A stretch of DNA of 64,000 bases, from contig JAGBHC010000027.1 of the NCBI GenBank assembly GCA_017935625.1, positions 17,913 through 81,912 of the forward strand, written 5' to 3'. Source of the DNA: Rikenellaceae bacterium. Its GTDB lineage: Bacteria; Bacteroidota; Bacteroidia; Bacteroidales; Rikenellaceae. Positions 42,365-59,830 of this stretch are shown here, piece by piece. The stretch's first letter is position 1. The number at the start of each line of letters is the position of its first letter. The notes under the pieces were generated by a model that did no database searches, had not been told where the DNA came from, and saw only the letters and a list, made by a program, of their open reading frames with translations. Position numbers and translations under genes: made by a program.

Positions 42365-42410
42365 GCTAAAGCAACGTGCAAAAACTTAAATTCAAAAACG
42401 GACAAGAACT

Positions 42411-43949: not shown

Positions 43950-44660
43950 GTGCGCCCGCCCGGGTGCGCCTCTCGTTTTCTTTCCGCACCCTCCTCCCGC
44001 CTGTTCCCTGCATCCGCTCTCCTTTCATCGGTCATCCCCCTTCACCATCCACCCTCTTTCCATCGACCGCACCATGCCCCTTTGTCAATTTCCGCTCCAT
44101 CGGCCGCACCCTCTTTCATCGTCCACTTCTCTATCCACCGACCCTTCCCCACATCCACCCTCTTCCCATCGGCTGGCCCGTACCTCTTTATTCGTCTCCC
44201 TCCAATCGCTCACCAGCCCTTCTCCATCTGCTCTCTTGTTATCAGCCGTCCCCCACCCCGTCACCCCCAGCTTTCCATCGACCGGCCCATATCTCTTTAT
44301 CCGTCTCCTCTCCATCGACCTGTCCACTTCTCCGGCCGGCCCCTCCAACATCCGCCCTTTCTCCACCGGCCGCCCCCACTCTTATTGTCCTCTTCCTTTC
44401 CCTGTCCACGCCCCTTTTCCGGAGCGGCTCTCCGTCCGCACCCCGACCGCTCTCCGAACGTTTCCCGCTTCCCTTTCCGAAACCCTTTCCCGAGGCCCCC
44501 TCTCCCGAGGCGAAGCCCCGTTCCGCGGGTTCCCCCTCCTTGCCGGGTCACCCGCAGCAGGGCCCTCTCCGCAGCAGCCGGAACCATTCCGTCCCCACGG
44601 TCTCTGCCCGACGAGAAAAAACCTCCGGCGGAAACCGGACGAAACGCTTTTCCTAAACAA
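43950..44660 (+). repeat. About 700-bp pyrimidine-rich (C/T on the plus strand) low-complexity non-coding tract
   Basis: Degenerate reiteration of ctttccatcgaccg / ccctctttcat / tccaccg motifs, with few purines. The ORFs across it are Pro/Ser/Leu low-complexity in all frames. Confidence 0.85.
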
Positions 44661-44891
44661 ATGAAAAATTGCACTAAAAATTCAGGAATCCTGCACAGAA
44701 CGCACTCAACGGCACATTTTCGACCGAAACTATCATTATTAAGGCAATTTAGACTACAAATGGCTTGTTAAAATGTAAGCAAAAATGACAAAAACAGTTA
44801 TAATTATTAATCAACTTTCCCCAATATTACAAAAAGACCGCAACGCGGCAAAAAAAATTTATTTTCCTCTTTAACGAAATTTTTTAATGAA

Positions 44892-45159: not shown

Positions 45160-48015
45160 ATGAAAAATTTCGCACTCTCAAGTTTGTTTACGGCTGCGGT
45201 ACTCTGCCTCTGGACGGCAGCGCCGGCCCAAAACAAGGCGACGGTAAACATCAAGGGGCATGTGGTCGCTTACCCCGAAAACCAGAAAGAGGGGAAAGAG
45301 GCCGTACCGTTCGCAGTTGTGCTGCTGCCCGACCTCAATGTCGCCGCGACGACCGATTCCGAAGGAGCGTTCGAACTCAAGAAACTCGCTCCCGATACTT
45401 ATAAAGTACAGGTCTCCTCGCTGGGTTACGAAACCCTCGATACCACCATCCTCGTATCCGCCGCAAAGACGGAATACGATTTCGTACTCCGCCAGTCGAA
45501 CTTCCGCATGGAGGAGGTCGTGGTGACGGCCCGCACTTCGAAGGCGGGTGCCTCGACCGCTTCGGTCATCTCCAAGGCGGCCATGGAGCACATGCAGGCC
45601 ACTTCGCTTTCGGATATCATGTCGCTCATGCCGGGCGGTTCGACCACCCGTCCCGACCTGCAGGGCGTATCGACCGCTTCGGTGCGCGGCGGAAGCAGCC
45701 TCGGCACGGCGGTCATCATGGACGGTTCGCCGCTCTCCAACAACGCCAACATGCAGATGCTGTCGGGTGCGATGGGTGCCTCTTCGACAAAAACCGGAGC
45801 AGTCACTCCGTCCAGCGGCGTGGACCTGCGTACCATCACCACCGATAACATCGAGAGCATCGAGGTAATCCGCGGCGTGGCTCCCGTCGAGTACGGCGAC
45901 ATCACCTCCGGCGCCATCATCGTCAATTCCAAGGCCGGACGCCAGCCGCTGACCGTCAAGCTCAACATCAACCCCAATGTCTACTCGGTATCGGCCACCC
46001 AGGGTTTCGCTCTGGGCAAGAAGGCCGGCAACATCAACTACGGCGCCGACTACGCATACAGTATGGCCGACCCCCGCGAGGGATACGACTTCTACCAGCG
46101 CGTCACCGGCCGCATGGGCTACACCAACACCTTCGGCCGCCTGTACACCAACACCTCGCTGAGCATGCTGTGGACCAAAGACAAGGGCGAACCCAACCCC
46201 GACGACTCGCAGGATAAGGAGACCTCCAATCAGCGCGACTGGGGCCTGCGCTTCAACACCAACGGAACCTACAACGTGAACAACGGCTGGTTCAAGAACA
46301 TCCAGTACAACGTGTCGTTCGGATACACCAACCGCAAGAGCTTCTACGAGAACGAAGCCACCAACGCCGACGTTCCCTACTCCTACTCCAAGACCGACGG
46401 CACCGTGCTTTCGAGCTACCCCGGCGGACATATCTACGACGACCAGGGCAACGAAATCACCAACTTCGGCACTTCGCCCAACGGCATTTTCCGTGCCTGG
46501 ATGCTGCCCGCCACCTATACCTACAACTACAACCTCTACGGCAAGGAGCTCAACACTTTCGTCAAGGTGAAAGCCAACTTCGCAGGCAAGCTGGGGGCAA
46601 CGCACCACCGCATGGTCGTGGGCGTCGATTTCAAGAGCGACGGCAACCTGGGCCGCGGCAAGGTCTTCGACCTGGACAATCCGCCCTACCGAAACGTAAG
46701 CTACACCTTCGGCACCCAGCGCGAACGCGCGTTCAAGGACATTCCGTTCGTCAATCAGTTCGGCGCGTTCTTCGAGGAGAATTTCCGCGCCACCATCCTG
46801 GGACGCGAACTGAACATCGCAGCGGGCGTGCGTTACGACCACACGCTGGATTTCGGCGGAGGATTCTCCCCGCGCGTGAACGTGGCCTATGAGATTCTGC
46901 CCAAGAAACTGAGCGTGCATGCCGCCTACGGTATCACCCGCAAGGCGCCCACCCTGGCCTATCTCTATCCCGACGACGCCTACTTCGATATCCTGAACTT
47001 CAACAACGCCTCCTCTTCGAAGGTGCCCGACGCACAGAAGATGCAGCTGGTGACCACCCGCGTCTTCGATGCCAAGAACTACGACCTGAAGATGGCCCGT
47101 CAGGACAAATACGAAATCGGTCTGAACGCCCACATCGGCAAGATGAGCTTCTCGGTGGTGGCCTACTACGACGAGATGCTCAACGGCTACCGGTTCGACA
47201 AGACGCCCGACACCTTCAAGTCGGTGGACCTCATCGAATACAACGCCACCTACCCCACCGACGGGACGAGCGCTCCGATTCTGACCCAGAAGGCCAGCAA
47301 CAAATACCTGCTGGAGTACACCACGGCCACCAACAACAGCGCCTATACGCGTCAGGGAGTCGAGTTCGACTTCAACTTCGGCCGAATCGACGCCATCCGC
47401 ACCTCGTTCATCCTCAACGGCAACATCTACACCCACAAGTCGTGGAACCGGGGTTACCTGTTCTACAACCGGGTCAAGACCAACGACTACTCCCAGTATC
47501 CCGATATGGGCGTATTCAACAGCAAAGACGCATACGGAGTCGGCTATACCGAGAACTTCATCACCAACCTCATCGTAACCCACAACATCCCCAAAATCGG
47601 ATTCGTGATTACGGCGACCGCCAACGTGAACTGGCGGCACAAGAGCTGGGATACCTACGCAGAGGACGATATCGTGCCCATCGCCTACATTTCGCGTCTG
47701 GACGGCAAGATGTACGACTTCGACAAATCGTGGGCAGACCCCTCGTCGGCCCGCTACGAGGAGTTCCGCTACCTGCTGCGCGACGAAGCGGTGGACCCGC
47801 TGCGCAGACTCCACGAAAAGGCCTATTCGCCCATACTCTGCATGAACCTGAACATCACCAAGCAGTTCGGCGACATGTTCGACGTGTCGTTCTTCGCCAA
47901 CAACATGTTCCGGAGCACCCCGGTTCACACTTCGAGCATCAACCCCAGTCACCACACCAGACGGAACGCCAATCTCTTCTTCTTCGGATTGCAGATAAAC
48001 GCGAGAATCAAATAA
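45160..48015 (+). CDS. TonB-dependent receptor (non-SusC type) with a CarboxypepD_reg-like N-domain
   Basis: 951 aa with a signal peptide. ATVNIKGHVV...TDSEGAFELKKLAPDTYKVQVSSLGYE, plug region (EEVVVTAR...SVISKAAMEHMQATSLSDIMSLMPG...IESIEVIRG), and a long beta-barrel. Confidence 0.9.
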   Translation: MKNFALSSLFTAAVLCLWTAAPAQNKATVNIKGHVVAYPENQKEGKEAVPFAVVLLPDLNVAATTDSEGAFELKKLAPDTYKVQVSSLGYETLDTTILVSAAKTEYDFVLRQSNFRMEEVVVTARTSKAGASTASVISKAAMEHMQATSLSDIMSLMPGGSTTRPDLQGVSTASVRGGSSLGTAVIMDGSPLSNNANMQMLSGAMGASSTKTGAVTPSSGVDLRTITTDNIESIEVIRGVAPVEYGDITSGAIIVNSKAGRQPLTVKLNINPNVYSVSATQGFALGKKAGNINYGADYAYSMADPREGYDFYQRVTGRMGYTNTFGRLYTNTSLSMLWTKDKGEPNPDDSQDKETSNQRDWGLRFNTNGTYNVNNGWFKNIQYNVSFGYTNRKSFYENEATNADVPYSYSKTDGTVLSSYPGGHIYDDQGNEITNFGTSPNGIFRAWMLPATYTYNYNLYGKELNTFVKVKANFAGKLGATHHRMVVGVDFKSDGNLGRGKVFDLDNPPYRNVSYTFGTQRERAFKDIPFVNQFGAFFEENFRATILGRELNIAAGVRYDHTLDFGGGFSPRVNVAYEILPKKLSVHAAYGITRKAPTLAYLYPDDAYFDILNFNNASSSKVPDAQKMQLVTTRVFDAKNYDLKMARQDKYEIGLNAHIGKMSFSVVAYYDEMLNGYRFDKTPDTFKSVDLIEYNATYPTDGTSAPILTQKASNKYLLEYTTATNNSAYTRQGVEFDFNFGRIDAIRTSFILNGNIYTHKSWNRGYLFYNRVKTNDYSQYPDMGVFNSKDAYGVGYTENFITNLIVTHNIPKIGFVITATANVNWRHKSWDTYAEDDIVPIAYISRLDGKMYDFDKSWADPSSARYEEFRYLLRDEAVDPLRRLHEKAYSPILCMNLNITKQFGDMFDVSFFANNMFRSTPVHTSSINPSHHTRRNANLFFFGLQINARIK

Positions 48016-48034: not shown

Positions 48035-49303
48035 ATGAAAAATTACCTCAAAATAGCATTCAGCATCTCATCCGCCGCAGCGCTCTGTTCCTGCGTCGGC
48101 ATGATGGACGACGCACAGAACGTCCCCGTCATCGAGCCCATCACCGTCTCCTACAAGGTCAGCGCGGCCACCGGGTTCATTCCCAAGGGCGGCATCGTGG
48201 ACCCCGACCCCTCGTTCTCGACACAGGGCGTGACGGTCTCCTTCCTGGAGAGCGCGACGGGTGCCGTGACCACCGGAGTGACCGACGCCGACTGCGTGGC
48301 CACCGTGGAACTCATCCCCGGCGACTACACCATTTCGGTCACCGGCAAAGTCGAGAACGACGGCACGGAGTACTACCTCAACGGCTCCATCAATTCGGTT
48401 TCGCTCGTCAAGGACATCAGCAAGCAGGAGGCAATGGCCAGCTCCGGACTGGTGGTGCGGCCCGCCAAAGTGGGTTCGCTCTGCATCTCCGAAATCTACT
48501 ACTGCGGCATCGCACCCTACTACTTCCGCGACCAGACCTACCAAATCTACAACAACGGCAACCAGGTGGAGTATCTCGACGGACTGTGCTTCGCCCAGCT
48601 CCATCCCAACATCGCCAGCGCCACCTCGGTTCCGCCCGTATGGCCCGACGAAGAGGGTGAGAACAACTACGTCTACGGACTGATGGTATGGCAATTCCCC
48701 GGCTCGGGACAGGAGTATCCCCTGCAGCCCGGCGAATCGGTGGTGGTCGTACAGGAGGCCCGCGACCACCGGGAGAACAACCCCGCCTCGTTCGACAACT
48801 CGATGGCCGACTGGGAGTGCTGGACCGGAAACGTACAGCGCGACAACCCCGACGTGGAGAACATGCCGCTGCTCTATGCCCAGTCGCTCAACAAACTGCA
48901 GTGGCTGACCTCGGTTTTCGGCGCCGCATTCTGCATCTACCGCGCCGACGACGGCACCGTGCTCGACGAAGCCTACTACAAGGACAAGAACAACACGCAG
49001 ACCGAGGTGAACAAGAGCAGCCGCTACGCCCGAATCCCCGCCTCCTACATTCTGGACGGCGTGGAGCTGATGCCCAACATGGACATCCTCGACAAGAAGC
49101 GCATTCCCGGATTCGTGGATGCCGGAGCCGCTTCGGTGGGCGATACCTACTGCGGCAAGGTGGTGGCCCGCAAAGTGGTGGGAACCCGCCCCGACGGCAC
49201 TCCCATCTTCTCCGACACCAACAACTCGACCGACGACTTCGAAGTGCTCGATTCGCCGATGATTCGCCGTTACGGACAGAAAGCACCCGCATGGAGCAAA
49301 TAG
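48035..49303 (+). CDS. Lipoprotein: N-terminal Ig-like region plus a lamin-tail(LTD)-like domain. I recall such proteins being annotated DUF4876.
   Basis: 422 aa with lipobox AALCSC. LCISEIYYCG...YQIYNNGNQVEYLDGLCFAQL resembles the LTD core (ISEi....E.velyN.g...vdL.G). Lies 19 bp after the receptor gene. Confidence 0.6.
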   Translation: MKNYLKIAFSISSAAALCSCVGMMDDAQNVPVIEPITVSYKVSAATGFIPKGGIVDPDPSFSTQGVTVSFLESATGAVTTGVTDADCVATVELIPGDYTISVTGKVENDGTEYYLNGSINSVSLVKDISKQEAMASSGLVVRPAKVGSLCISEIYYCGIAPYYFRDQTYQIYNNGNQVEYLDGLCFAQLHPNIASATSVPPVWPDEEGENNYVYGLMVWQFPGSGQEYPLQPGESVVVVQEARDHRENNPASFDNSMADWECWTGNVQRDNPDVENMPLLYAQSLNKLQWLTSVFGAAFCIYRADDGTVLDEAYYKDKNNTQTEVNKSSRYARIPASYILDGVELMPNMDILDKKRIPGFVDAGAASVGDTYCGKVVARKVVGTRPDGTPIFSDTNNSTDDFEVLDSPMIRRYGQKAPAWSK

Positions 49304-49334: not shown

Positions 49335-50942
49335 ATGACAATGAAGAAAAACACATACTACAAGGCAGCGGGCTGCTTATCGCTGGCGATGGCTGCCGTA
49401 ATGCCCGCATCGGCCCAGAACACCACCACCGCTTCGGTCGAGAGGCAGAAGCTGGAGAACATCTGGGTGAACAACACCGACAACGCCGCAGCCGGCGTAA
49501 TCGACGCCCCCTCCCGTTACAGTCTCAGCGACCTGAACTTCGGCATGACCAAAGGCGACTTCAAACGCGTACAGCAGGGCAAGGACAACAACTCCGTGGG
49601 ATTCCACACCGAAGGCGGCGGCATCTACGAGAAGATGGGCGGCATGTACCTCTGGGGCGAATTCTCCTACTCCAGAGACCGCATCAAGGGCGCCCGCTTC
49701 AACGCCTCGCTCATCGACCCGCTGCGCGGCATGCCCTTCCTGCTGGCCGACAGCACCGCCAGCAAGTGGATTAACCAGGACTACTCGATGCGCATGAAGG
49801 TGGCTTTCCCCAAACTCTTCGACTGCCTGACCCTCGGCGTGGGAGCCTCCTACCAGAATGCGCAGGGAGCCAAGCAGGTGGACCCCCGTCCCCTGATGCG
49901 GCTCTCCAAAATCGGAGTGACCCCGTCGGCCGTGGTGGAAATCGGCAAACACAACTTCCTGGGCGCCCACTTCGACTACTACAACCGGCGCGAAGACGGC
50001 AACCCCACCAACACCAACAACCGCGTCAATCAGGCGGGATGGGACTTCGTGGCGCCCGGATTCTTCCAGACCGGCGAATTCGGTTCCTTCAGCAGCCTCA
50101 GTTCCAAGCGCTTCTACAACGCCAACGCCATGGGCGGCGGAGTGCAGTACGGTTTCAAGAACGACCGGCTCAACCTGCTCGTCTCGGGCAGCTACATGCA
50201 GAAAGTGGAGGACGTGGACAACCAGTACAGCGGCGAATCGACCGCCTCCATCCGTAAAATGATAGGCACCGTGAAGGAAGAGCTCTGGAACGGCAAACTG
50301 GTGGCCAACTACACCTTCAACTCGGGGAACATCCTGGCCCTGAACATCGGCTACACCGACAAGAGCATCGACGGCATCGAGTATCTCCAGACCTATGACA
50401 ACTCCTTCGACGTGCAGGCCTGGATTATCAACGCCAAGTTCACCCGCTCGAACTTCTCGACCAAGCAGACCGACGTGAAACTCGACTACATGGTCACCGA
50501 CGACGGCAACAGCTACAAGTGGTGGATGGGCGCCCAGTACACCAAGCTCACCGACGGATACGTCTACTACCAGCCCCGCTCGACGCAGGACGTCGAAACC
50601 GCCGTGCTCGGTGCGTTCGTCTCGCGCAACATCCGCCTGTGCGACCGCCACGCGCTGACCCTCACCGTAAACGGAGGCTATTCGACCAACCGCAGCGGCG
50701 AACTCGACTACCACGGTTACAAGGCCGACAACGTCGGATTCACCATGCTCACGCTCAAGGACTTCGAGTTCCTGTGCACCGACTACGCCAAATTCGGCGG
50801 CGAGGTGACCTACACCTTCTCGGGATTCAAGAATCCGTCGATGTCGCTCTACGTAACCGCCGACTTCGACTACTACAAGCCCGACTCGGAAATCTTCTCG
50901 AAACGCACCTTCACCAATTTCAAAGTCGGTGTCGCATTCTAA
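49335..50942 (+). CDS. Outer-membrane beta-barrel protein. I recall such neighbours being annotated DUF6850.
   Basis: 535 aa. Signal peptide ending ASAQ, alternating-hydrophobic strand pattern throughout, and a C-terminal ...FKVGVAF with terminal Phe. Confidence 0.65.
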   Translation: MTMKKNTYYKAAGCLSLAMAAVMPASAQNTTTASVERQKLENIWVNNTDNAAAGVIDAPSRYSLSDLNFGMTKGDFKRVQQGKDNNSVGFHTEGGGIYEKMGGMYLWGEFSYSRDRIKGARFNASLIDPLRGMPFLLADSTASKWINQDYSMRMKVAFPKLFDCLTLGVGASYQNAQGAKQVDPRPLMRLSKIGVTPSAVVEIGKHNFLGAHFDYYNRREDGNPTNTNNRVNQAGWDFVAPGFFQTGEFGSFSSLSSKRFYNANAMGGGVQYGFKNDRLNLLVSGSYMQKVEDVDNQYSGESTASIRKMIGTVKEELWNGKLVANYTFNSGNILALNIGYTDKSIDGIEYLQTYDNSFDVQAWIINAKFTRSNFSTKQTDVKLDYMVTDDGNSYKWWMGAQYTKLTDGYVYYQPRSTQDVETAVLGAFVSRNIRLCDRHALTLTVNGGYSTNRSGELDYHGYKADNVGFTMLTLKDFEFLCTDYAKFGGEVTYTFSGFKNPSMSLYVTADFDYYKPDSEIFSKRTFTNFKVGVAF

Positions 50943-51038: not shown

Positions 51039-53222
51039 ATGAACCGTAAAACATTTTTCATTCCGGTGTTTCTGACCGTCGCAACGGCTTTCGGCCCCGC
51101 TGCGGCCCGCGACATCGAGAAACCCTCCGTGAAAGGCAAAACCAGTTTCGCCGTGGTGGTGGACAAAACCACGCTCGAACGATGCCGTACCCAAATCGAC
51201 GCCTACAAGCGCACCGTCGAAAGCGAGGGCCTGCCCACCTACATCATCTCGGACGACTGGACCTCGCCCGAACAGATAAAAGAGATATTGCAGGAGCTCC
51301 ACCTCTCCGACCGGCTCGAAGGAGCGTTCCTGGTGGGAGACGTTCCCATCGCCATGGTCACCAAGGCCCAGCACATGACCTCGGCCTTCAAGATGGACGA
51401 ACGCAAATTCCCGCTGCGCGAGGTGTCGGTTCCCACCGACCGCTTCTACGACGACTTCGACCTGGAGTTCGAGCCCATCCGGGATTCGACCGACGGCCTG
51501 ATGCACTTCTACCGCCTCAGCCCCACCTCGCCCCAGTACATCGAATGCGACATCTACACCGGCCGCATCAAGGCCCAGGAGAGCAACGGCGACAAATATC
51601 GCCAGATAAGCGACTACCTGGCCAAGGCCGTGGCGGCGCACAAGGAGCACAACCCGTTCGACACCTTCGTCTCCTACACGGGACACGGCTCCTACTCGGA
51701 CTGCATCACCGCCTGGCGGGCCGAACAGCAGATTCTGCAGGAGCAGTTCCCGGGCGTATTCACCCGCACCAACACCGCCAAGTTCCTGCGCTACTCGATG
51801 GAGCCCTACATGAAAGAGAGCGTCATCCGCGAGCTGCGCCGTCCGGACCTCGACTTCATGGTCTTCCACGAGCACGGCATGCCCGAACGCCAGTACCTCT
51901 CGGCCATTCCCCAGCAGAGCGACCTCGACCAGACCGAGTTCATCAAGACCTCCCTGCGCGAACGGATGAGACGGAGCTCGGCCGCCTCACGCGCTTCGGC
52001 CCTCAGAATCGCCGAAGAGTGGGGACTCGACTCGACCTGGTATGCCGGAGCCGACGACCCGCAGCTGATTGCGCTCGACTCGCTGGCCGACCTGAAGACC
52101 GGCATCATCGTGGAAGAGGTGAACGACATCGCTCCCAACGCACGGATGGTCATCTTCGACGCCTGCTATAACGGCGACTACCGCGAAGGAGACTTCATCG
52201 CCGGCAAATACATCTTCTCCCCGGGCAAGTGCGTGGCCGCTTTCGCCAACAGCGTGAACGTGCTGCAGGACAAGTCGGCCTTCGACCTGCTCGGACTGCT
52301 CGGCGAGGGCATCCGGCTGGGCAACTGGGCCAAGCACATCAACATCCTCGAATCGCACATCATCGGTGACCCCACCTACCACTTCACCGCCCGCCAGGGC
52401 GCCGAGGACATCAACGCCGCGATGGCCATCGACGAGAGCGGCTACTGGAAAGGCCGGCTCGACGACCCCAATCCCGAAATCCAGAACGTGGCCATGATGA
52501 AGCTCGTGCGCAACGACTATCCCGGCATTTCGGACATCCTCTACGGCAAAATGTGCTCGTCGCCCTATGCCATCGTGCGCTACAACGCGCTGGTGCAGCT
52601 CGAGAAACTCAACGACGAGAACTACCGCAAGGCGCTCATCCGCGGCACGGACGACAACTTCGAGTTCATCCGCCGAATCAGCACCCACCGCATGGGCATG
52701 TGCGGAGACGACCGCTTCCTGCCCTATCTGGTGGCAGCCTACGTAAACGACAACTACGCCGCCCGCATGACCTTCAACATCACTTCGGCCCTGCTCTGCT
52801 TCGACAAACACTCCGCCCTGAAGGCCATCGACGAGTGGTTCGCCGGCAAGAAGTTCTACAACGCCGAAAAATACAGACAGCGCCTCGTCGCCCTGGTGTC
52901 GGACGACCCTGCGGGCGAATCGCTCGAGGAGATTAAAGACCCCTCGGCCTCGCTCTCCTACCGCATCGCACGAATCAGCTTCCTGCGCAACCGGCCCTAC
53001 CACCAGATTACCGACGGACTGCTGGAGGTGCTCGCCGACCGGAACGCCGACCCGCAGCTGCGCCATCGAATCATCGAATCGCTGGCCTGGTACCGCCTCT
53101 CGGCCGAGCGGCCCAAAATCCTCGCCGCACTGGAGAAGATGCTGGCCGAGAAAGATTTCCCCACTCCCGAAACCGAACGCGAACTGACCCGTGCCTGCAC
53201 CCGTCTGTGCTCTGCCAAATAG
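51039..53222 (+). CDS. Secreted gingipain-fold (peptidase C25-like) domain protein with C-terminal HEAT-like repeats, paralogue 1 of 3
   Basis: 727 aa with a Sec signal (...GPAAARD). LVGDVPI, PTDRFYDDFD, IYTGRI, SYTGHGSYSD, FHEHG, VIFDACYNGDY and IIGDPTYHF follow the order of C25 motifs. The C-terminal roughly 260 aa are helical repeats. Confidence 0.65.
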   Translation: MNRKTFFIPVFLTVATAFGPAAARDIEKPSVKGKTSFAVVVDKTTLERCRTQIDAYKRTVESEGLPTYIISDDWTSPEQIKEILQELHLSDRLEGAFLVGDVPIAMVTKAQHMTSAFKMDERKFPLREVSVPTDRFYDDFDLEFEPIRDSTDGLMHFYRLSPTSPQYIECDIYTGRIKAQESNGDKYRQISDYLAKAVAAHKEHNPFDTFVSYTGHGSYSDCITAWRAEQQILQEQFPGVFTRTNTAKFLRYSMEPYMKESVIRELRRPDLDFMVFHEHGMPERQYLSAIPQQSDLDQTEFIKTSLRERMRRSSAASRASALRIAEEWGLDSTWYAGADDPQLIALDSLADLKTGIIVEEVNDIAPNARMVIFDACYNGDYREGDFIAGKYIFSPGKCVAAFANSVNVLQDKSAFDLLGLLGEGIRLGNWAKHINILESHIIGDPTYHFTARQGAEDINAAMAIDESGYWKGRLDDPNPEIQNVAMMKLVRNDYPGISDILYGKMCSSPYAIVRYNALVQLEKLNDENYRKALIRGTDDNFEFIRRISTHRMGMCGDDRFLPYLVAAYVNDNYAARMTFNITSALLCFDKHSALKAIDEWFAGKKFYNAEKYRQRLVALVSDDPAGESLEEIKDPSASLSYRIARISFLRNRPYHQITDGLLEVLADRNADPQLRHRIIESLAWYRLSAERPKILAALEKMLAEKDFPTPETERELTRACTRLCSAK

Positions 53223-53249
53223 TTTCACCTTTATAAAAGTTATCAAACG

Positions 53250-55427
53250 ATGAAAAGATTATCCATACTCATAACCGTCATGCTCTGCGTCTCGACCCTC
53301 GCAGCGCAGGTAAAGGTGACAAAACCCCTGAGCAAACAGAGCAACTCGTTCGCCATCGTCACCGACCAGACCACCTTCGACAAAGTCGGCCGGCAGCTGC
53401 TGGCCTATCGCGATGCGCTGGAGGCCGACGGACTCTCGACCTACATCGTCAGCGGCCGCTGGGAGAACCCCGACCAGGTGCGCGACCAAATCGGCAAACT
53501 CTACGCCCGGAGCCGCAACCTGGAGGGAATCGTGCTGGTGGGCGACATCCCCTATGTGATGGTGCGCAACGCCCAGCACATGACCACGGCCTTCAAGATG
53601 GACGAGGAGAAGTTCCCCATCGACCAGTCGTCGGTGGCTTCGGACCGCTTCTACGACGACCTGCACCTGAGCTTCGAGTTCCTGGAGCGCGACTCGCTGG
53701 AGCCCCTCAGATTCTACTACAAACTCTCCGAGAACTCGCCCCAGCAGCTGGCGCCCAACTTCTATTCGGGCCGTATATTCTACCCCCCGCAGCTGGGCGG
53801 CGACAAGTACGAGGCCATCGCCCGCTTTCTGGAAAAGGCGGTGGAGGCCAAGCGCAATCCCGACCCGCTGGACCACATCGTCACCTTCGCCGGACACGGT
53901 TACAACAGCGACTGCCTGCTGGTATGGCAGGACGAGAAGATTGCCATGAAGGAGAACTTCCCCTTCACCGGCAAAACCAACCTCTCGGCCAAGCACCTCA
54001 ACTTCCGCATGGAGCAGTACATGAAGTATAAGCTCTTCGACGAGCTGCAGCGTCCGGAGGTGGACGTGTTCCTCTTCAACGAGCACGGCTCCATCGACAA
54101 GCAGCACATCTCGGGAGGCTCCTCCATCGAGACCGTGCAGGACCGTCTGGCAATGCTTCGCGCATCCATCGAGATGCAGCTGCTCTTCACCCCCAAAGGC
54201 AAGCGTGAGGAGGCCCGCCGGCAAATCATGCAGGAGATGGGCCTCGGCGAGAAGTTCTTCGAAGCCGGAACCGGAGAGGAAGAGACGGACGGGGAGGCCA
54301 CCGACGAGAATATCATCAGCCTCGACGACCTGAAGGGATTCAACCCCCAGCCCCGCTTCGTCATGTTCAACGCCTGCTACAACGGCTCGTTCCACCGGCC
54401 GGGCAATATCGCCGGCTACTACATCTTCGGAGAGGGCCGCACCATCGCCACACAGGGCAACACGGTGAACGTCCTGCAGGACAAGTGGACCTACGAGATG
54501 GTGGGCCTCATTTCGCACGGCGTGCGCATCGGCGAATACAACCGTCAGATTGCCACCCTGGAGGGCCACATCGTGGGTGACCCCACGTTCCACTTCGCCG
54601 ACAGCGAGGGATGCACCCTGCGGCGCGACATCGTAGCCAAGGGCGGCGACGCGGCCTACTGGCGCACGCTGCTCGACGCCCCCTATGCCGACATCCGCTC
54701 CATCGCCCTGCGCAAGCTGACCGACCTGGGAGCCATCTCCTCGGCCGAAATAGTGGCCCGAATGAAGGAGTCGCCCTTCGCCACCACCCGCATGGAGTGC
54801 CTCAAACTGCTGAGCCGCTTCCGCGACGACGCCTACGTGGAGGGCATCCGCCTGGGACTCTACGACAGCTATGAACTCACCCGCCGCAACGCAGCCGACT
54901 ACGCCTGGCGGGCGGGCGACCCGCGGCTGGTTCCCGCCATCATGGACGTACTGGTCAGATATCCCGAATCGCAACGCGTGAACTACCTGTTGCAGAAGGC
55001 CGTGAACCTCTACCCCGCCGACGGGCTCATCGCCGAGCTCGAGCGCATGAAACCCACGCTCACCGACGCCGACCCCGAACAGGCCGCAGCCCGCATCCGC
55101 GAAATGATAGAGGAGCAGCGGTCGGCCAAGGAGAAGACCATGCAGGCGCTGCTCGACAAGCAGGCCCCGCTGGCCCGGCGCATCCAGTCGGCACGCTACG
55201 TCCGCAACTACACCTATCACGAATACGTACCCCAGCTGCTGGCGCTGGTCGGCGACTCCGCCGAAGAGCTCAGCCTGCGCGTGAACGTGGCCGAAGCGCT
55301 GGGATGGTTCAACAAATCGGTCTCCTACGATGAAATCGCCCGGGGATGCCGGCAGCTGCTCGAAAACCCGGCCCTCGAACCGCAGCTGCGCAAGGAGCTC
55401 GTCCAGACCCTGAACCGGCTCAAATAA
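53250..55427 (+). CDS. Secreted gingipain-fold/HEAT-like repeat protein, paralogue 2 of 3
   Basis: 725 aa with signal ...STLAAQ. LVGDIPY, ASDRFYDDLH, FYSGRI, TFAGHGYNSD, FNEHG, VMFNACYNGSF and IVGDPTFHF. C-terminal repeats (DIRSIALRKL..., LSLRVNVAEALGWF...). Confidence 0.65.
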   Translation: MKRLSILITVMLCVSTLAAQVKVTKPLSKQSNSFAIVTDQTTFDKVGRQLLAYRDALEADGLSTYIVSGRWENPDQVRDQIGKLYARSRNLEGIVLVGDIPYVMVRNAQHMTTAFKMDEEKFPIDQSSVASDRFYDDLHLSFEFLERDSLEPLRFYYKLSENSPQQLAPNFYSGRIFYPPQLGGDKYEAIARFLEKAVEAKRNPDPLDHIVTFAGHGYNSDCLLVWQDEKIAMKENFPFTGKTNLSAKHLNFRMEQYMKYKLFDELQRPEVDVFLFNEHGSIDKQHISGGSSIETVQDRLAMLRASIEMQLLFTPKGKREEARRQIMQEMGLGEKFFEAGTGEEETDGEATDENIISLDDLKGFNPQPRFVMFNACYNGSFHRPGNIAGYYIFGEGRTIATQGNTVNVLQDKWTYEMVGLISHGVRIGEYNRQIATLEGHIVGDPTFHFADSEGCTLRRDIVAKGGDAAYWRTLLDAPYADIRSIALRKLTDLGAISSAEIVARMKESPFATTRMECLKLLSRFRDDAYVEGIRLGLYDSYELTRRNAADYAWRAGDPRLVPAIMDVLVRYPESQRVNYLLQKAVNLYPADGLIAELERMKPTLTDADPEQAAARIREMIEEQRSAKEKTMQALLDKQAPLARRIQSARYVRNYTYHEYVPQLLALVGDSAEELSLRVNVAEALGWFNKSVSYDEIARGCRQLLENPALEPQLRKELVQTLNRLK

Positions 55428-55457
55428 CCCGCTGAAAGACAACACAAACTTCCAACC

Positions 55458-57650
55458 ATGACAAACAAAATCAAACTCATCGCTCTTTCGCTGCTCCTGT
55501 TGCCCGTCACGATGCTGGCATCGGCTCAGCGCAAAACGGTCGCTCCGACCGTCAAGTCGCCGACCTCGTTCGTCATCGTCATCGACGAACAGAGCTACGC
55601 CAAACTTCCCGCACAGGTGGAGGCCTACCGCCGCGCCATCGAAAACGACGGCCTGGCCGCCTGGATTGTGGCCGACCGCTGGCAGTCGCCCGAACAGGTC
55701 AAGTCGCTGCTCGTGAAGATGGCCTCGGACAAGAAGATGCCCATCGAGGGTGCCGTGTTCGTGGGCGACATTCCCATCGCCATGCTGCGCGACGCCCAGC
55801 ACCTCTCGTCGGCCTTCAAGATGGACCAGAACCGCGACTGGAAAGAGTCGTCGATTCCCTCCGACCGCTTCTACGACGATTTCGACCTCACCTTCGATTT
55901 CATCCGTCAGGACGAGGAGAAGCCCGAATTCTTCTACTACTCGCTGCGCAGCGACTCGCCCCAGTACGTCAATCAGGATATCTACACCGGCCGCATCCGC
56001 CCCTTCGGCGAGGACAAATACGCCCAGCTGGCCAAATACCTCGACAAAGTGGTGGCGGCGCACGCCGAAGCCAATCCGCTGGACAACCTGCTGGTGTTCC
56101 GCGGACACGGCTATAACTCCGAGGCCAAAGAGGCCTGGTCGGGCGAGCAGATATCGCTGCGCGAACAGCTGCCCACACTCTTCACCACGGGCAATACCGT
56201 GCGTTTCTACGACTTCGAGACCCGCTTCCCGATGAAGCCCTACCTGCTGGAGCACCTCCGCAATCCGGAGCTCGACGTGGCCCTCTGCCACCATCACGGC
56301 TCGGAAGAGATGCAATATCTCAACGGATACCAGACCGTGTCGGGAGCCCAGGCCAGCGCCGAAAACATCAAGCGTTTCCTGCGCAGCAAGGTGGTCGGCT
56401 CGAAAGACCCCGAAGGCAACCTGAAGAAATACATGGAGTACATGGACGTGCCCGCCTCGTGGATAGACACCTCCGACTCGATGCGGCTGGCGGACGAAGC
56501 CTACAACAGGTCGCTGGACATCTATGCCGAGGATATCTACGCAGCGGCTCCCAACGTGCGGTTCATCATGTTCGACGCCTGCTACAACGGCTCGTTCCAC
56601 GTGGGCAACTGCATCTCCAACGCCTATCTGTTCAGCGACGGCAAGACCGTCGTAACCCAGGGCAACACCGTGAACAGCCTCCAGGACAAGCATCCCGACG
56701 CCTTCGTGGGACTGCTGGCCAGCGGACTGCGCATCGGCCAGTGGGGACGCCACGCCCAGCAGTTCATCGAATCGCACATCGTGGGCGACCCCACCTACCG
56801 CTTCGCCAACACCGCCACCCCCGCCCTGGACATCAACCGCGCCATCGCCGTGGAGGGCAAGAACGACAAATTCTGGCTCGAGGCCCTCTCCTTCGACTCG
56901 GCCGACTGGCAGGCCATGGCCGTGCGCAAACTCGCCACGAACAACTACCCCGGCATCGAACGGCTGCTGATGGACACCTATCTTTCGTCGCCCTACGGCG
57001 GCGTGCGTCTGGAGTGCGTGAAGATGCTCGCCCGCAAGGACTCGCCCCTGTTCCTCGAAATGCTGGCACTGGGCATGAACGACAGCTACGAGCTGGTGCG
57101 CCGTCTCTGCACCGAGTACATCGGCATGTGCGGCAACGACGAACTGCTCCCCGTGCTGGTCAAAGCCCTCATCGAGGACAACCTCTCCAACCGCGTCAAT
57201 TACCACGCACGCAGCAACCTCACCTTCTTCTCTCCCGACAAGGCCCGCGCCGAGGTGGAGAAGCAGCTTGCGGCGCACACCCAGCTGATGAATCCCGATG
57301 CCGACGCGAAAAGCCTCTGCGGGGTCATCGAGAGCGGTGACAACCGCGTGAAGGGCAACATGGAAGAGCTCCTGGGCAGCGAATTACCCCCCCGCGAACG
57401 CAAATTCGCCCTCACCACCCTGCGCAACTACCACTACCACTACATCGTGCCGGAGGTGATACGCTTCGCCGAGGACACCACCCAGCCGCTCGACCTGCGC
57501 GTGACCGCCGTCGAGGCACTGGGATGGTTCCACTCCTCCTACCAGAAAGAGGCTATCAACGCCATGTGCGACCGTCTCGTGGCTTCGGGAGCACCCGAAG
57601 CGCTCGTCGCCGAGGCCCGCAAGACCCGTTCGAGACTCAAGCCCTTCTAA
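55458..57650 (+). CDS. Secreted gingipain-fold/HEAT-like repeat protein, paralogue 3 of 3
   Basis: 730 aa with signal ...MLASAQ. FVGDIPI, PSDRFYDDFD, IYTGRI, VFRGHGYNSE, CHHHG, IMFDACYNGSF and IVGDPTYRF. C-terminal repeats (LDLRVTAVEALGWF...). Confidence 0.65.
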   Translation: MTNKIKLIALSLLLLPVTMLASAQRKTVAPTVKSPTSFVIVIDEQSYAKLPAQVEAYRRAIENDGLAAWIVADRWQSPEQVKSLLVKMASDKKMPIEGAVFVGDIPIAMLRDAQHLSSAFKMDQNRDWKESSIPSDRFYDDFDLTFDFIRQDEEKPEFFYYSLRSDSPQYVNQDIYTGRIRPFGEDKYAQLAKYLDKVVAAHAEANPLDNLLVFRGHGYNSEAKEAWSGEQISLREQLPTLFTTGNTVRFYDFETRFPMKPYLLEHLRNPELDVALCHHHGSEEMQYLNGYQTVSGAQASAENIKRFLRSKVVGSKDPEGNLKKYMEYMDVPASWIDTSDSMRLADEAYNRSLDIYAEDIYAAAPNVRFIMFDACYNGSFHVGNCISNAYLFSDGKTVVTQGNTVNSLQDKHPDAFVGLLASGLRIGQWGRHAQQFIESHIVGDPTYRFANTATPALDINRAIAVEGKNDKFWLEALSFDSADWQAMAVRKLATNNYPGIERLLMDTYLSSPYGGVRLECVKMLARKDSPLFLEMLALGMNDSYELVRRLCTEYIGMCGNDELLPVLVKALIEDNLSNRVNYHARSNLTFFSPDKARAEVEKQLAAHTQLMNPDADAKSLCGVIESGDNRVKGNMEELLGSELPPRERKFALTTLRNYHYHYIVPEVIRFAEDTTQPLDLRVTAVEALGWFHSSYQKEAINAMCDRLVASGAPEALVAEARKTRSRLKPF

Positions 57651-57719: not shown

Positions 57720-58035
57720 GAAAAGAATAGGGCCGCACCCCCGCCGAGAGAAAGCAGCCCCCGAGAGAATGAAGACCGCAGCTCCCGTCAGGAAAGAACA
57801 GGCTGCACCATGAAAAGGGTAAAGAGCTGCGCCCCTGCTCCCCCAAAAACCACCTACCCCTCAAAAGGCTACCCTCCAAGAGAAAGGCCACGACTACTGC
57901 CAAGAAAAGAGCTGCCCCAAAGAATGGTAAGGGCACGACTCCTGTCGAGAAAAGAGCTCCTCCATGAAAATGGCCACAGTTTCTGTCGAGAAAAGAGTAA
58001 GCAGAAACGAGTAAGCCGCCCCTGCAAAAAAGAGA
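57720..58035. repeat. T-poor A/G/C low-complexity intergenic tract
   Basis: Reiterated gagaaag / aaaagagct(g/c)c / aaaggc(c/t)ac motifs. Same flavour as 32870-33300. Confidence 0.7.
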
Positions 58036-58069
58036 AAAAGCCTGTCCGGAAATCCGGACAGGCTTTTTC
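58036..58069. terminator. Bidirectional terminator next to the ThrC-like gene
   Basis: aaaaagcctgtccgga / tccggacaggcttttt perfect stem with A/T runs. Confidence 0.8.
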
Positions 58070-58145
58070 ATGGTAAATCAGAAGAAGGGCTGAATCAAGG
58101 GAGACCCTAAGGGTGAATCAGAGAGAGGCTGACCCAAGGGAGCCC

Positions 58146-59474: not shown

Positions 59475-59588
59475 GCCCATTTTCACCGGGCTCACAATAG
59501 GTATTTATACGTATTAATAAGCCCCGCCCGGTAAGTCAAACAGTCGGTAAACCATCGTCATCGGGACCCTGAGCGCAGGCAAAAGGGG

Positions 59589-59830
59589 GCAAGAAGATGC
59601 CGGGAGAGCGTGTGCGAGAAGATGCAAGAGAGAAAGCTGAGAGTGCGAAGGGCTGTGTGCGAGAAGATACAAAAGAGAAAGCAGTGAGTGCGGGGGGCTG
59701 TGTGCGAGAATATGCAAAAGAGGAAGCTGAGAGTGCGAGGGGCTGTGTGCGAGAAGATGCAAAAGAGGGAGCGAGAAGATGCAGGGAGAGCGTGTGCGAG
59801 AAGATGCAAAAGAGACAAGAGAGGGCGGGG
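59589..59830. repeat. Purine-rich tandem array with a 45-47 bp period, about 5 units
   Basis: gtgtgcgagaagatgcaaaagagRaagctgagagtgcgaRgggct begins at 59610, 59655, 59700, 59745 and 59792, with a partial unit from about 59589. Confidence 0.9.

What the first reader, a model, noticed from the sequence alone, without database searches (positions are those of the whole stretch)
51039..57650. Gingipain-like His and Cys motifs conserved at near-identical positions in all three paralogues, with a large insertion between them and no T9SS CTD
All three paralogues share the ordered motifs (L/F)VGD(I/V)P, (T/S)DRFYDD, Y(T/S)GRI, GHG(S/Y), (E/H)HG, (F)(D/N)ACYNG and I(I/V)GDPT(Y/F)(H/R)F. From memory, RgpB reads NYTGHGSETAW (catalytic His), FIFDVACVNGDF (catalytic Cys) and ends with VFGDPS. 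P1's SYTGHGSYSD, VIFDACYNGDY and IIGDPTYHF mirror these. The candidate His is residue 216/216/217 (codons at nt 51684, 53895, 56106). The candidate Cys is residue 376/376/375 (nt 52164, 54375, 56580). The His-Cys spacing is about 160 aa, against about 33 aa in gingipain, so a whole extra subdomain containing a second conserved HG (FHEHG/FNEHG/CHHHG) is inserted. C25-family proteins I know of are T9SS cargo with a C-terminal sorting domain. These instead end in HEAT-like repeats. The paralogues are diverged at the nucleotide level, so this is an old triplication and not an assembly artefact.
Basis: partly seen in the sequence, partly recalled or inferred. Interest (0 to 1): 0.75.

Follow-up and report, generated by a model that had tools for sequence, protein, structure and literature searches.

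The report
Gingipain-like peptidase–HEAT triplet in transporter operon

Summary
Three paralogues (51039-53222, 53250-55427, 55458-57650, + strand) carry every listed motif at the stated codons. They are 34-36% identical in protein and about 53% in DNA.

The C25 (gingipain) idea is supported only indirectly. The window proteins miss the Pfam Peptidase_C25 threshold (P1 16.2 bits against a cut-off of 23; P2 and P3 no hit). Relatives of the same family that lack the insertion pass it (26.8-47.2 bits).

The catalytic His is mis-assigned:
- The "second HG" (His279/279/280) is invariant in 204/204, and Cys376/376/375 in 203/204.
- In insertion-free relatives the His-Cys spacing drops to 34 aa (gingipain 33), and the C25 His aligns with that HG.
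- So the insertion is about 63 aa of predicted helices after the true His.

There is no T9SS C-terminal domain, and the C-terminal half is HEAT repeats. The triplication predates the Bacteroidales families, and dN/dS is about 0.07-0.10.

The genes end a conserved operon: TonB-dependent transporter, DUF4876 lid, DUF6850, then 2-3 paralogues. All parts are present in 68 of 80 loci. Homologous transporter loci are induced by low iron in published work.

Best reading: exported cysteine peptidases serving a protease-associated import system. Activity, location and substrate are untested.

The parts
45160..48015 (+). TonB-dependent outer-membrane transporter, not SusC-type; first gene of the operon
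   Evidence: Pfam CarbopepD_reg_2 and Plug. It sits in the same position in 68 of 80 related loci.
48035..49303 (+). DUF4876 lipoprotein, the predicted surface lid of the transporter
   Evidence: Pfam DUF4876, E 1.9e-44. PDB 4Q1Z 'putative lipoprotein', E 4e-68. Lid role predicted for BT1938 in bioRxiv 10.1101/2023.03.17.533168.
49335..50942 (+). DUF6850 protein, probably an outer-membrane beta-barrel
   Evidence: Pfam DUF6850, E 5.3e-90. It has a signal peptide ending ASA-Q and a C-terminal Phe that is nearly invariant. The barrel fold is inferred. It has no relative by sequence in the PDB.
51039..53222 (+). Paralogue P1 (727 aa): signal peptide, diverged C25-like domain (about residues 26-455), HEAT-repeat domain (about 470-727)
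   Evidence: (AlphaFold model pLDDT 90.8). NCBI MBP3356290.1, named 'HEAT repeat domain-containing protein'.
53250..55427 (+). Paralogue P2 (725 aa), same architecture
   Evidence: It falls in its own orthologue class across Bacteroidales.
55458..57650 (+). Paralogue P3 (730 aa), same architecture
   Evidence: In other genomes this class lies either after P2 or upstream of the transporter.
51873..51878 (+). P1 His279-Gly280, the proposed catalytic His (equivalent to RgpB His211)
   Evidence: Invariant in 204/204 orthologues and 139/140 representatives. It follows predicted strand 273-277. The C25 His aligns here in relatives without the insertion.
54084..54089 (+). P2 His279-Gly280, proposed catalytic His
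56295..56300 (+). P3 His280-Gly281, proposed catalytic His
52161..52166 (+). P1 Ala375-Cys376, the proposed catalytic Cys (equivalent to RgpB Cys244)
   Evidence: Cys in 203/204 orthologues. hhalign and HMM alignments place it on RgpB ...DVACVNG.
54372..54377 (+). P2 Ala375-Cys376, proposed catalytic Cys
56577..56582 (+). P3 Ala374-Cys375, proposed catalytic Cys
51684..51686 (+). Equivalents are P2 nt 53895-53897 and P3 nt 56106-56108.
   Evidence: His in only 113/204 orthologues and 82/140 representatives. By strand order the loop corresponds to RgpB Glu152-Asp163, which lines the active site (PMC9559808). The exact residue equivalence is not resolved.
51906..52133 (+). P1 helical insertion between catalytic His and Cys, about residues 290-365. 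Equivalents are P2 nt 54117-54344 and P3 nt 56328-56549.
   Evidence: Predicted helices at 298-311, 315-327, 341-352 and 358-364. The segment is absent or much shorter (His-Cys spacing 34-58 aa) in 13 of 139 representatives.
52446..53219 (+). P1 HEAT-repeat domain, about 15 helices. Equivalents are P2 about nt 54660-55424 and P3 about nt 56874-57647.
   Evidence: Pfam HEAT_2 scores: P1 36.3, P3 45.4, P2 26.2 bits (cut-off 27.7). PDB alphaRep, deoxyhypusine hydroxylase and YibA matches. Residues R514, D539, E542, R546 and R576 are at least 97% conserved.
58034..58069 (.). Perfect 16-bp-stem hairpin between the operon end and the convergent gene; likely a terminator for both directions
   Evidence: consensus scan only.

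Best explanation
Each of the three genes encodes a Sec-exported protein. Each has a signal-peptidase-I type signal, no lipobox, and no T9SS C-terminal domain.

The N-terminal ~430 residues are a highly diverged C25 (gingipain/PorU-type, clan CD) cysteine-peptidase domain. The catalytic dyad is His279-Gly280 after the third strand, and Ala375-Cys376 after the fourth strand, of the caspase-like subdomain. About 63 residues of predicted helices are inserted between them. The C-terminal ~260 residues are HEAT repeats.

The three copies are ancient orthologous classes. They are the last genes of a six-gene operon: TonB-dependent transporter, DUF4876 surface lid, DUF6850 (probably an outer-membrane barrel), then P1, P2 and P3.

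Most likely they are active cysteine peptidases, or possibly PorU-like transpeptidases. They would process the cargo of this transporter. That cargo is probably a protein- or peptide-bound iron or haem source. The processing would happen in the periplasm or at the outer membrane, with the HEAT domain holding the substrate or a partner.

Shown here: domain homology, residue conservation, operon conservation and purifying selection.

Inferred: enzymatic activity, cellular location, substrate, and the link to iron or haem.
For: C25 homology through intermediates.
- The family profile finds 981 cluster representatives at E<=1e-3.
- Members with short His-Cys spacing match the family profile at E of about 1e-98 to 1e-106. 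They pass Pfam Peptidase_C25 above its 23-bit cut-off: P0285 47.2 bits (E 2.4e-12, profile 99-371 of 374), P0283 36.0 (profile 27-371), P0284 33.4, P0290 26.8.
- The second paralogue of locus L082 (726 aa, from the same family and operon) also passes, at 30.4 bits.
- Window-type members sit just below: L040 22.9 bits over profile 45-311; L026 21.5 bits over 261-373; window P1 16.2 bits over 45-147. Six of 15 members hit C25 and no other family recurs.

Dyad assignment.
- His279 204/204, Gly280 204/204, Cys376 203/204; His and Cys 139/140 each and Gly 140/140 among representatives.
- His-Cys spacing is 34-58 aa in 13 representatives and 91-119 aa in 126. RgpB has 33.
- An RgpB-type HMM aligns 'YtGHGse' with 'HHHGDY' and 'ACvnG' with 'ACFNG' in P0285 and P0283.
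- In the high-confidence model (pLDDT 90.8, pTM 0.89), six strands follow the N-terminal subdomain: 209-214, 246-251, 273-277, 370-373, 400-404 and 439-443. His follows the third and Cys the fourth. This matches RgpB strands s5-s10, whose numbering is partly confirmed by PMC9559808.
- One representative, P0295, has lost both His and Cys together.

Selection. dN/dS medians are 0.067-0.103 for all three classes and for both domains.

Operon.
- All five or six parts lie on one strand in 68 of 80 loci. These span Alistipes, Odoribacter, Butyricimonas, Prevotella, Bacteroides, Phocaeicola, Muribaculaceae and Proteiniphilum.
- Gene gaps in the window are 19-96 nt.

Link to proteolysis and iron or haem.
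- An M16 peptidase is inserted in the operon in Odoribacter splanchnicus and Tidjanibacter.
- An HmuY-family gene follows P2 in about 9-10 loci.
- ECF sigma with FecR lies upstream in one locus and FecR in another.
- BT1933-39 (annotated as HEAT repeat protein, DUF4876 protein and transporter) and PG1019-22 are induced by iron limitation (PMC10434189). PG1019/1020 rise under haem limitation (PMC13096392).
Against: - No enzymatic, localisation or substrate data exist for any member.
- The window proteins themselves fail Pfam's C25 threshold.
- The family profile finds no PDB sequence.
- Foldseek did not retrieve gingipains. The full-length model's hit list is filled by HEAT proteins, with one weak clan-CD hit (SAVED-CHAT 8tl0_C, E 1.1e-3, TM 0.19/0.28). 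The N-domain-only model was poor (pLDDT 72) and gave only weak periplasmic-binding-protein matches, TM about 0.2.
- No Fur-box-like site lies upstream in this window (best 12/19, which 30 other sites in the window also reach).
- B. thetaiotaomicron BT1938/BT1939 mutants had no phenotype in 519 fitness experiments.
- How a protein with no lipobox or T9SS signal would reach the cell surface is unknown. The periplasm is only the default assumption.
Confidence: 0.6

Rival explanations
1. The catalytic His is the GHG His216/216/217, homologous to RgpB His211. A ~125-residue subdomain, containing a second and merely structural HG, is inserted before the Cys.
For: 'YTGHGS' in P1 is identical to RgpB 208-213. 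The local hhalign of the middle regions prefers this pairing, score 23.3 against 12.8. An RgpB-type HMM gives tiny matches of its His region to this site in several orthologues, -0.7 to 3 bits.
Against: Position 216 is not His in 91 of 204 orthologues or in 58 of 140 representatives. It is Q, S, S or D in the members that pass Pfam C25. The other HG is invariant. This model needs two core strands deleted and two others inserted, whereas the colinear model needs one helical insertion that is naturally absent in some members.
Confidence: 0.05
2. Pseudo-peptidase or binding module. The C25-like fold is kept, but the invariant His279, Cys376 and His440 (with Glu438 and Asp444) bind a metal, haem or another ligand, or only hold a scaffold together. 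In that case the proteins act as periplasmic cargo receptors or chaperones for the transporter, not as enzymes.
For: Several invariant His, Cys and acidic residues could form a metal site. HEAT-repeat proteins such as deoxyhypusine hydroxylase, a fold match, bind metals (own knowledge). Transporter operons usually need a periplasmic binding partner, and none is otherwise encoded here. The weak Foldseek matches of the N-domain are to periplasmic binding proteins.
Against: The pattern 'hydrophobic strand-x-His-Gly ... hydrophobic strand-x-Ala-Cys' is the clan CD catalytic signature (own knowledge). It is kept in all three classes across the order. His and Cys are lost together in the one degenerate member. 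The Foldseek matches have TM of about 0.2 on a low-confidence model.
Confidence: 0.2
3. PorU-like sortase or processing enzyme. The C25-like domains do not degrade imported cargo. They cleave and perhaps transfer a specific envelope protein of the system, for example maturing the lid, the DUF6850 barrel or each other. They would be docked on the DUF6850 barrel, as PorU docks on PorV.
For: PorU is a C25 relative (RgpB against 6za2_A, E 3.7e-5). PorU works as a transpeptidase bound to an outer-membrane barrel (own knowledge). DUF6850 is always encoded directly upstream of P1. Fused two-module ORFs exist, which hints that the paralogues act together.
Against: There is no T9SS signal or C-terminal domain on any operon protein. 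DUF6850 has no detectable similarity to PorV or anything else in the PDB. The occasional M16 peptidase and HmuY genes fit cargo breakdown better.
Confidence: 0.12

Closest known systems
Gingipains RgpB and Kgp (MEROPS family C25, Pfam PF01364, clan CD)
   Same: The two-subdomain alpha/beta catalytic domain is colinear throughout. The shared motifs are LVGD-P, SDxxY, GR, His-Gly after one strand, Ala-Cys-x-N-G after the next, AxS(V/I)N after the fifth strand, and a closing GDP(S/T). Relatives without the insertion have the same His-Cys spacing (34 against 33) and pass the Pfam threshold.
   Different: There are about 63 extra helical residues between His and Cys. There is no N-terminal propeptide (PF08126), no Ig-like domain, no haemagglutinin or adhesin domains, and no T9SS C-terminal domain. 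A C-terminal HEAT-repeat domain is present instead. The genes come as 2-3 ancient paralogues inside a transporter operon. The window proteins fall below the Pfam cut-off.
PorU (C25-like T9SS sortase bound to the PorV barrel)
   Same: It is a diverged C25 domain used for something other than bulk proteolysis, and it is functionally tied to an outer-membrane barrel. PorU's similarity to RgpB is confirmed at E 3.7e-5.
   Different: PorU belongs to the T9SS and keeps a C-terminal domain. Nothing links this operon to the T9SS. No similarity between DUF6850 and PorV could be shown.
Protease-associated import systems: FusA/FusC and YddB/PqqL (PMC6793856, PMC6071955)
   Same: A TonB-dependent transporter is encoded together with exported protease(s). 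In that model the protein cargo is imported and cleaved in the periplasm to release iron. An M16 peptidase of the FusC/PqqL type is itself a member of this operon in Odoribacter and Tidjanibacter.
   Different: Those systems are proteobacterial and use a single M16 metalloprotease. Here the constant partners are 2-3 cysteine-peptidase-like HEAT proteins plus a lid lipoprotein and a DUF6850 protein. No cargo is known.
BT1939-BT1938 (B. thetaiotaomicron) and PG1020-PG1019 (P. gingivalis): transporter with DUF4876 lid
   Same: They share the families of the first genes. The pair is reported next to each other in 81 genera and is induced by iron or haem limitation. The B. thetaiotaomicron cluster BT1933-39 is annotated as including a HEAT repeat protein.
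   Different: The published work covers only the transporter and its lid. My searches found no paper that describes the downstream HEAT or C25-like genes. Direct orthology of the window operon to BT1939 was not tested here; B. xylanisolvens is among the matched loci.
Separase and CHAT-domain proteases (clan CD domain fused to helical repeats)
   Same: The architecture is analogous: a caspase-like His/Cys domain joined to a large alpha-helical repeat domain. The only non-HEAT Foldseek hit of the good model was a SAVED-CHAT protease.
   Different: The domain order is opposite, the families are different, and those proteins are cytoplasmic. The hit is weak (TM 0.19/0.28).

Membership tests
Peptidase family C25 (Pfam PF01364 / MEROPS C25) | Score at or above the curated Pfam gathering threshold (23 bits) | tested here: not met
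   Window P1 N-domain scores 16.2 bits (E 0.0066, profile 45-147 only). P2 and P3 give no hit. Close orthologues score 21.5-22.9 bits. Family members without the insertion score 26.8-47.2 bits, and the second paralogue of locus L082 scores 30.4 bits, all above the threshold. Homology therefore follows through these intermediates, not directly.
Peptidase family C25 (Pfam PF01364 / MEROPS C25) | Catalytic His (followed by Gly) and catalytic Cys (preceded by Ala), in that order, each just after a hydrophobic strand | tested here: met
   FMVFHEH279G and MVIFDAC376 in P1, with equivalents in P2 and P3. Conserved in 204/204 and 203/204 orthologues. Aligned to RgpB His211 and Cys244 in bridging members.
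Peptidase family C25 (Pfam PF01364 / MEROPS C25) | His-Cys spacing of about 33 residues | tested here: not met
   The spacing is 97/97/95 aa in the window. It is 34-58 aa in 13 of 139 family representatives.
Peptidase family C25 (Pfam PF01364 / MEROPS C25) | N-terminal subdomain with LVGD, SDxxY and GR motifs, colinear with RgpB residues 72-114 | tested here: met
   Pfam partial match to profile 45-147. hhalign and HMM alignments pair EGAFLVGD with TYVLLVGD, TDRFYDD with SDQVYGQ, and YTGRI with FIGRF.
Peptidase family C25 (Pfam PF01364 / MEROPS C25) | Caspase-like fold with His and Cys side by side at the sheet edge | tested here: inconclusive
   The number, order and spacing of strands in the pLDDT 90.8 model fit. 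Foldseek returned no gingipain in the top 50 for either model; HEAT hits fill the full-length list, and the N-domain-only model had pLDDT 72.
Peptidase family C25 (Pfam PF01364 / MEROPS C25) | Cysteine endopeptidase or transpeptidase activity | not testable with these tools
   Needs purified protein, substrates and active-site mutants.
T9SS cargo (typical of characterised C25 proteins) | C-terminal sorting domain (Por_Secre_tail, PF18962, or similar) | tested here: not met
   No such Pfam hit at E<=1 in P1-P3. The C-termini are HEAT helices up to the last residues.
HEAT repeat proteins (Pfam HEAT_2, PF13646) | Score above the curated threshold (27.7 bits) and an all-helical repeat fold | tested here: met
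   P1 36.3 and P3 45.4 bits; P2 26.2 bits, just below. About 15 helices are predicted for residues 479-723. alphaRep, DOHH and YibA match by sequence and fold.
Protease-associated import system (TonB-dependent transporter plus exported protease) | Conserved co-location of a TonB-dependent transporter with exported protease gene(s) | tested here: met
   68 of 80 loci carry the transporter, DUF4876, DUF6850 and the paralogues on one strand. Signal peptides are visible in P1-P3 (read by eye).
Protease-associated import system (TonB-dependent transporter plus exported protease) | Import of a protein cargo and its cleavage in the periplasm | not testable with these tools
   No cargo is known. BT1938/BT1939 mutants had no phenotype in the published fitness data.

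The most novel reading that the evidence does not exclude
Gut and oral Bacteroidales share an undescribed, order-wide protease-associated import system. In it, a TonB-dependent transporter, a DUF4876 lid and a DUF6850 barrel bring in a protein- or peptide-bound iron or haem source. A hetero-oligomer of two or three C25-type cysteine peptidase-HEAT proteins cleaves that source in the periplasm. This would be the first clan CD version of such a system. It would also be the first role for gingipain-family enzymes outside T9SS secretion.
Probability: 0.25. Interest if true: 0.8.

Novelty: new variant of a known kind. Interest (0 to 1): 0.6.

Why it matters
C25 peptidases are known almost only as T9SS-secreted virulence proteases (the gingipains) and as the T9SS sortase PorU. 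This work shows a large, strongly conserved branch of that family that lacks the T9SS signal. It has 981 cluster representatives at 50% identity. It is present in Bacteroides, Prevotella, Alistipes, Odoribacter, Muribaculaceae and others.

This branch has gained a HEAT-repeat domain. It is fixed as two or three ancient paralogues in an outer-membrane uptake operon. Public records name these proteins only 'HEAT repeat domain-containing' or 'hypothetical'.

Homologous transporter loci are among the genes most strongly induced by low iron in P. gingivalis, and are induced in B. thetaiotaomicron. Their substrate is unknown. Recognising a probable cysteine-peptidase active site next to them gives concrete experiments:
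- active-site mutants of His279 and Cys376;
- activity-based probes;
- growth on protein-bound iron or haem sources.

The correction of the catalytic His matters in practice.

Tried and rejected
- **Direct sequence tests of the window proteins against C25 or PDB.** Pfam and NCBIfam on the full proteins found only HEAT. phmmer and a family profile against all PDB sequences found only alphaRep/HEAT or nothing. hhalign of the family against RgpB alone gave probability 2%, only around the Cys. Against a 27-sequence RgpB-type profile it gave a colinear end-to-end alignment at probability 7.7%. Too weak to stand alone.
- **Fold search.** The full-length model's top 50 were nearly all HEAT proteins. 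A second model of the N-domain alone came out at pLDDT 72. It gave only weak periplasmic-binding-protein and LacI matches (TM about 0.2, rmsd about 15 Å), which I do not take as evidence.
- **Deciding which His is equivalent from sequence similarity of the middle region.** Conservation, insertion-free relatives and strand order settled it instead.
- **Exact equivalence of position 216 to RgpB Glu152 or Kgp Asp388.** The register differs by 2-4 residues between alignments, so I claim only the same loop.
- **Fur box upstream of the operon.** Best match 12/19, no better than background.
- **Sigma-70 promoter and terminator scan.** Counts were at shuffle level. Only the 58034-58069 hairpin stands out.
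- **DUF6850 relationship to PorV, FadL or any solved barrel.** None found, with a single sequence or a 24-sequence profile. The transporter also has no PDB match by phmmer.
- **Literature.** Searches for the downstream B. thetaiotaomicron and P. gingivalis genes found nothing beyond the transporter and lid.

Full report
**1. What is in the window**

Three adjacent + strand ORFs occupy the finding's coordinates:
- P1, 51039-53222 (727 aa)
- P2, 53250-55427 (725 aa)
- P3, 55458-57650 (730 aa)

They are 34-36% identical in protein. They are about 53% identical in DNA and about 51% at third codon positions. They are therefore real, old paralogues.

The stated codons for the GHG His and the ACYNG Cys are exact. 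YTGHGSETAW (His211), FIFDVACVNGDF (Cys244) and VFGDPS match PDB 4ief_B and 1cvr_A.

Pfam sees only HEAT_2 in the C-terminal halves. It sees nothing in the first ~460 residues and no T9SS sorting domain. The exact proteins are in NCBI as MBP3356290.1 to MBP3356292.1. They are named 'HEAT repeat domain-containing protein [Rikenellaceae bacterium]'.

**2. Is the N-terminal half a C25 domain?**

Not demonstrably, from the window proteins alone:
- A 15-sequence family profile finds no PDB sequence.
- hhalign against RgpB gives 2-8% probability.
- Pfam Peptidase_C25 gives 16.2 bits for P1, against a cut-off of 23, and nothing for P2 or P3.

The weak matches are nevertheless consistent and colinear. 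C25 is the only family that recurs, in 6 of 15 members. Orthologues reach 22.9 bits over profile positions 45-311 and 21.5 bits over 261-373.

The decisive evidence came from an exhaustive profile search:
- It returned 981 representatives at E<=1e-3.
- Among the top 150 are members about 60 residues shorter.
- Four of these pass Pfam's curated threshold: P0285 47.2 bits, P0283 36.0 bits over profile 27-371 of 374, P0284 33.4 bits, and P0290 26.8 bits.
- The second paralogue of locus L082 (726 aa) also passes, at 30.4 bits.

For P0225, P0284 and P0285 I fetched the surrounding DNA. P0225 and P0284 sit in the complete operon. P0285's short contig shows a second HEAT paralogue downstream, followed by a relative of the unknown 494-aa gene. 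The N-domain is therefore a diverged C25 domain by transitive homology.

**3. Which residues are catalytic?**

I collected 204 family proteins from 80 genomes.
By class: P1 E31/H29/D12/S6; P2 H39/G10/A9/N6; P3 H45 of 49.
- The 'second HG' is invariant: His279 204/204 and Gly280 204/204.
- Cys376 is present in 203/204.

The picture is the same among 140 cluster representatives. His279 is 139/140 and Cys376 is 139/140, while position 216 is His in 82/140.

The His279-to-Cys376 distance is bimodal. It is 91-119 aa in 126 representatives and 34-58 aa in 13, with a minimum of 34. RgpB has 33.

In the members that pass Pfam C25, position 216 is Q, S, S or D. For the two of them whose alignment reaches the His region (P0285 and P0283), my RgpB-type HMM aligns 'inYtGHGse' with 'AMLHHHGDY' or 'ALLHHHGDW'. 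It aligns 'ACvnG' with 'ACFNG' or 'ACYNG'.

The high-confidence model of P1 (pLDDT 90.8, pTM 0.89) has six strands after the N-terminal subdomain:

| Strand | Residues | What follows |
|---|---|---|
| 1 | 209-214 | loop containing position 216 |
| 2 | 246-251 | |
| 3 | 273-277 | His279 |
| 4 | 370-373 | Cys376 |
| 5 | 400-404 | |
| 6 | 439-443 | |

This is the count and order of RgpB strands s5-s10. The strand-to-strand spacings are also similar: 37 and 27 aa here, against 35 and 24 in RgpB. The RgpB spacings rest on my own reading of its sequence. The s5-h5 and s9-h9 labels are confirmed in PMC9559808.

The colinear model needs one insertion, of about 63 residues and three to four predicted helices (298-364), between His and Cys.

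Locally, profile similarity does favour pairing RgpB 'YTGHGS' with GHG216. I treat that as a misleading local resemblance.

Position 216 lies in the loop after the first strand. By strand order this corresponds to the RgpB Glu152-Asp163 segment, which lines the active site. Glu152 (Asp388 in Kgp) is the third catalytic residue (PMC9559808 and PMC12385285). The alignments do not fix the register.

One representative, P0295, has lost both His and Cys.

**4. The rest of the protein**

Each protein starts with a signal peptide of the signal-peptidase-I type. This was read by eye, and there is no lipobox. The family consensus cleavage site is A-Q.

The domain begins directly after the signal. No Propeptide_C25 region was found, although the RgpB-type relatives carry one.

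Residues 479-723 form about 15 helices. They match alphaRep, deoxyhypusine hydroxylase and YibA HEAT proteins. A conserved charged patch is present: R514, D539, E542, R546 and R576.

**5. Evolution**

The three copies are orthologous classes. In 202 of 207 cases, the nearest relative in another genome belongs to the same class.

Pairwise dN/dS between close orthologues has medians of 0.103, 0.103 and 0.067 for the three classes. Values are similar for the peptidase-like and HEAT halves.

**6. Genomic context**

In the window the genes follow a TonB-dependent transporter (45160-48015), a DUF4876 lipoprotein (48035-49303) and a DUF6850 protein (49335-50942). Gaps are 19-96 nt. A strong hairpin at 58034-58069 lies before a convergent gene.

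Among the 80 loci:

| Arrangement | Loci |
|---|---|
| transporter-DUF4876-DUF6850-P1-P2 | 22 |
| the same, with P3 appended | 21 |
| P3 upstream of the transporter | 19 |
| any arrangement with all three outer-membrane genes plus paralogues | 68 |

Most of the remaining loci are truncated contigs.

Accessory genes seen elsewhere:
- An M16 peptidase of 939 aa lies inside the operon in Odoribacter splanchnicus. One lies directly after P3 in Tidjanibacter.
- An unknown 494-aa gene plus an HmuY-family gene follow P2 in about 9-10 loci that have two paralogues.
- ECF sigma plus FecR lies upstream in one locus, and FecR in another.

Published work:
- It predicts DUF4876 to be a surface lid of BT1939-type transporters and finds the pair together in 81 genera. 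It reports no fitness phenotype.
- It reports iron-limitation induction of BT1933-39, annotated as including a HEAT repeat protein. It reports stronger induction, up to 214-fold, for PG1019-22.
- It reports haem-limitation induction of PG1019/1020.

I found no paper on the downstream genes.

**7. How it most likely works**

Shown: a C25-type domain with an invariant His/Cys pair under strong purifying selection. It is exported, fused to HEAT repeats, and always encoded with a transporter, a lid and a DUF6850 protein.

Inferred: the proteins are active cysteine peptidases that process the transporter's cargo. The closest working analogy is the protease-associated import system (FusA/FusC and YddB/PqqL; PMC6793856, PMC6071955). 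There, a protein is imported and cut in the periplasm to free iron. The sporadic M16 peptidase in this very operon fits that analogy.

A second analogy is the co-operation of gingipains, HmuY and HmuR in haem acquisition in P. gingivalis. This rests on my own knowledge.

The rivals are a non-catalytic ligand- or metal-binding module and a PorU-like processing enzyme docked on the DUF6850 barrel. Location, substrate, and whether the paralogues form a hetero-oligomer all remain open. Fused two-module ORFs exist, but they may be gene-calling or sequencing artefacts.

**8. Verdict**

The family, the Cys, the missing sorting domain, the HEAT repeats and the ancient triplication are correct.
- It is wrong on the catalytic His and on the size and nature of the insertion.
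- The object is a new variant of a known kind: a T9SS-independent, HEAT-fused, insertion-bearing branch of C25 that is hard-wired into a conserved uptake operon.

Noticed in passing
L084:7096-9915 (Odoribacter splanchnicus) and L008:16527-19340 (Tidjanibacter sp.): A ~939-aa M16 peptidase of the double M16/M16_C type, like FusC and PqqL, sits inside or directly after the same operon in these two genomes. L030 has a weaker match.
   Followed up: partly
L082:13081-14909, and the same position in L043, L049, L051, L066, L067, L073, L075 and L076: In operons with only two paralogues, P2 is followed by a conserved ~494-aa protein with no Pfam family and then a small HmuY-family (haem-binding hemophore type) gene.
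   Followed up: partly
L083:2408-4103 and L084:1-838: One relative (L083) has an ECF sigma factor and a FecR anti-sigma gene directly upstream. Another (L084) shows FecR at the locus edge and an STN signalling domain on the transporter. The window operon has neither.
   Followed up: no
P0150 (1402 aa), P0151 (1419 aa), L076:9812-14200: Single ORFs carry two complete peptidase-like plus HEAT modules (P1-like then P2-like, or P3-like then P1-like). They are either real fusions, which would hint that the paralogues work together, or lost stop codons and assembly errors.
   Followed up: partly
P0295 (636 aa): This family member has lost both the conserved His and the conserved Cys (IRQYP and FADNP). 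It is an apparent pseudo-enzyme.
   Followed up: no
L040:3034-14431: Five tandem paralogues (three P3-like, then P1, then P2) with no transporter, DUF4876 or DUF6850 gene in the 10 kb upstream. It is the only such locus among the 80.
   Followed up: no
window 59579-59827: A tandem repeat array with period 45/90 bp, about 2.5-4.5 copies and 76-85% matches. It lies in the region between the PALP-enzyme gene (58146-59438, - strand) and the decarboxylase-like gene (59857-60987, - strand). A separate 39-bp x2 repeat lies at 58072-58150.
   Followed up: no
window 58034-58069: A perfect inverted repeat with a 16-bp stem (GAAAAAGCCTGTCCGG...CCGGACAGGCTTTTTC), flanked by T-runs. It lies between the convergent operon end and the next gene.
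   Followed up: no
window 39239-43919: A SusC-type transporter (1041 aa) and a SusD-family lipoprotein (502 aa) lie just upstream on the same strand. They are followed by a 273-aa ORF with no Pfam family (43950-44771). This looks like a separate polysaccharide-utilisation-type pair.
   Followed up: no
window 48035-49303: The DUF4876 lid protein has a solved but functionally unannotated structure in the PDB: 4Q1Z, 'putative lipoprotein', E 4e-68.
   Followed up: no
window 53250-55427: Most database copies of P2 are called 10 residues shorter (715 aa against 725 aa), so the start codon of P2 is uncertain.
   Followed up: no
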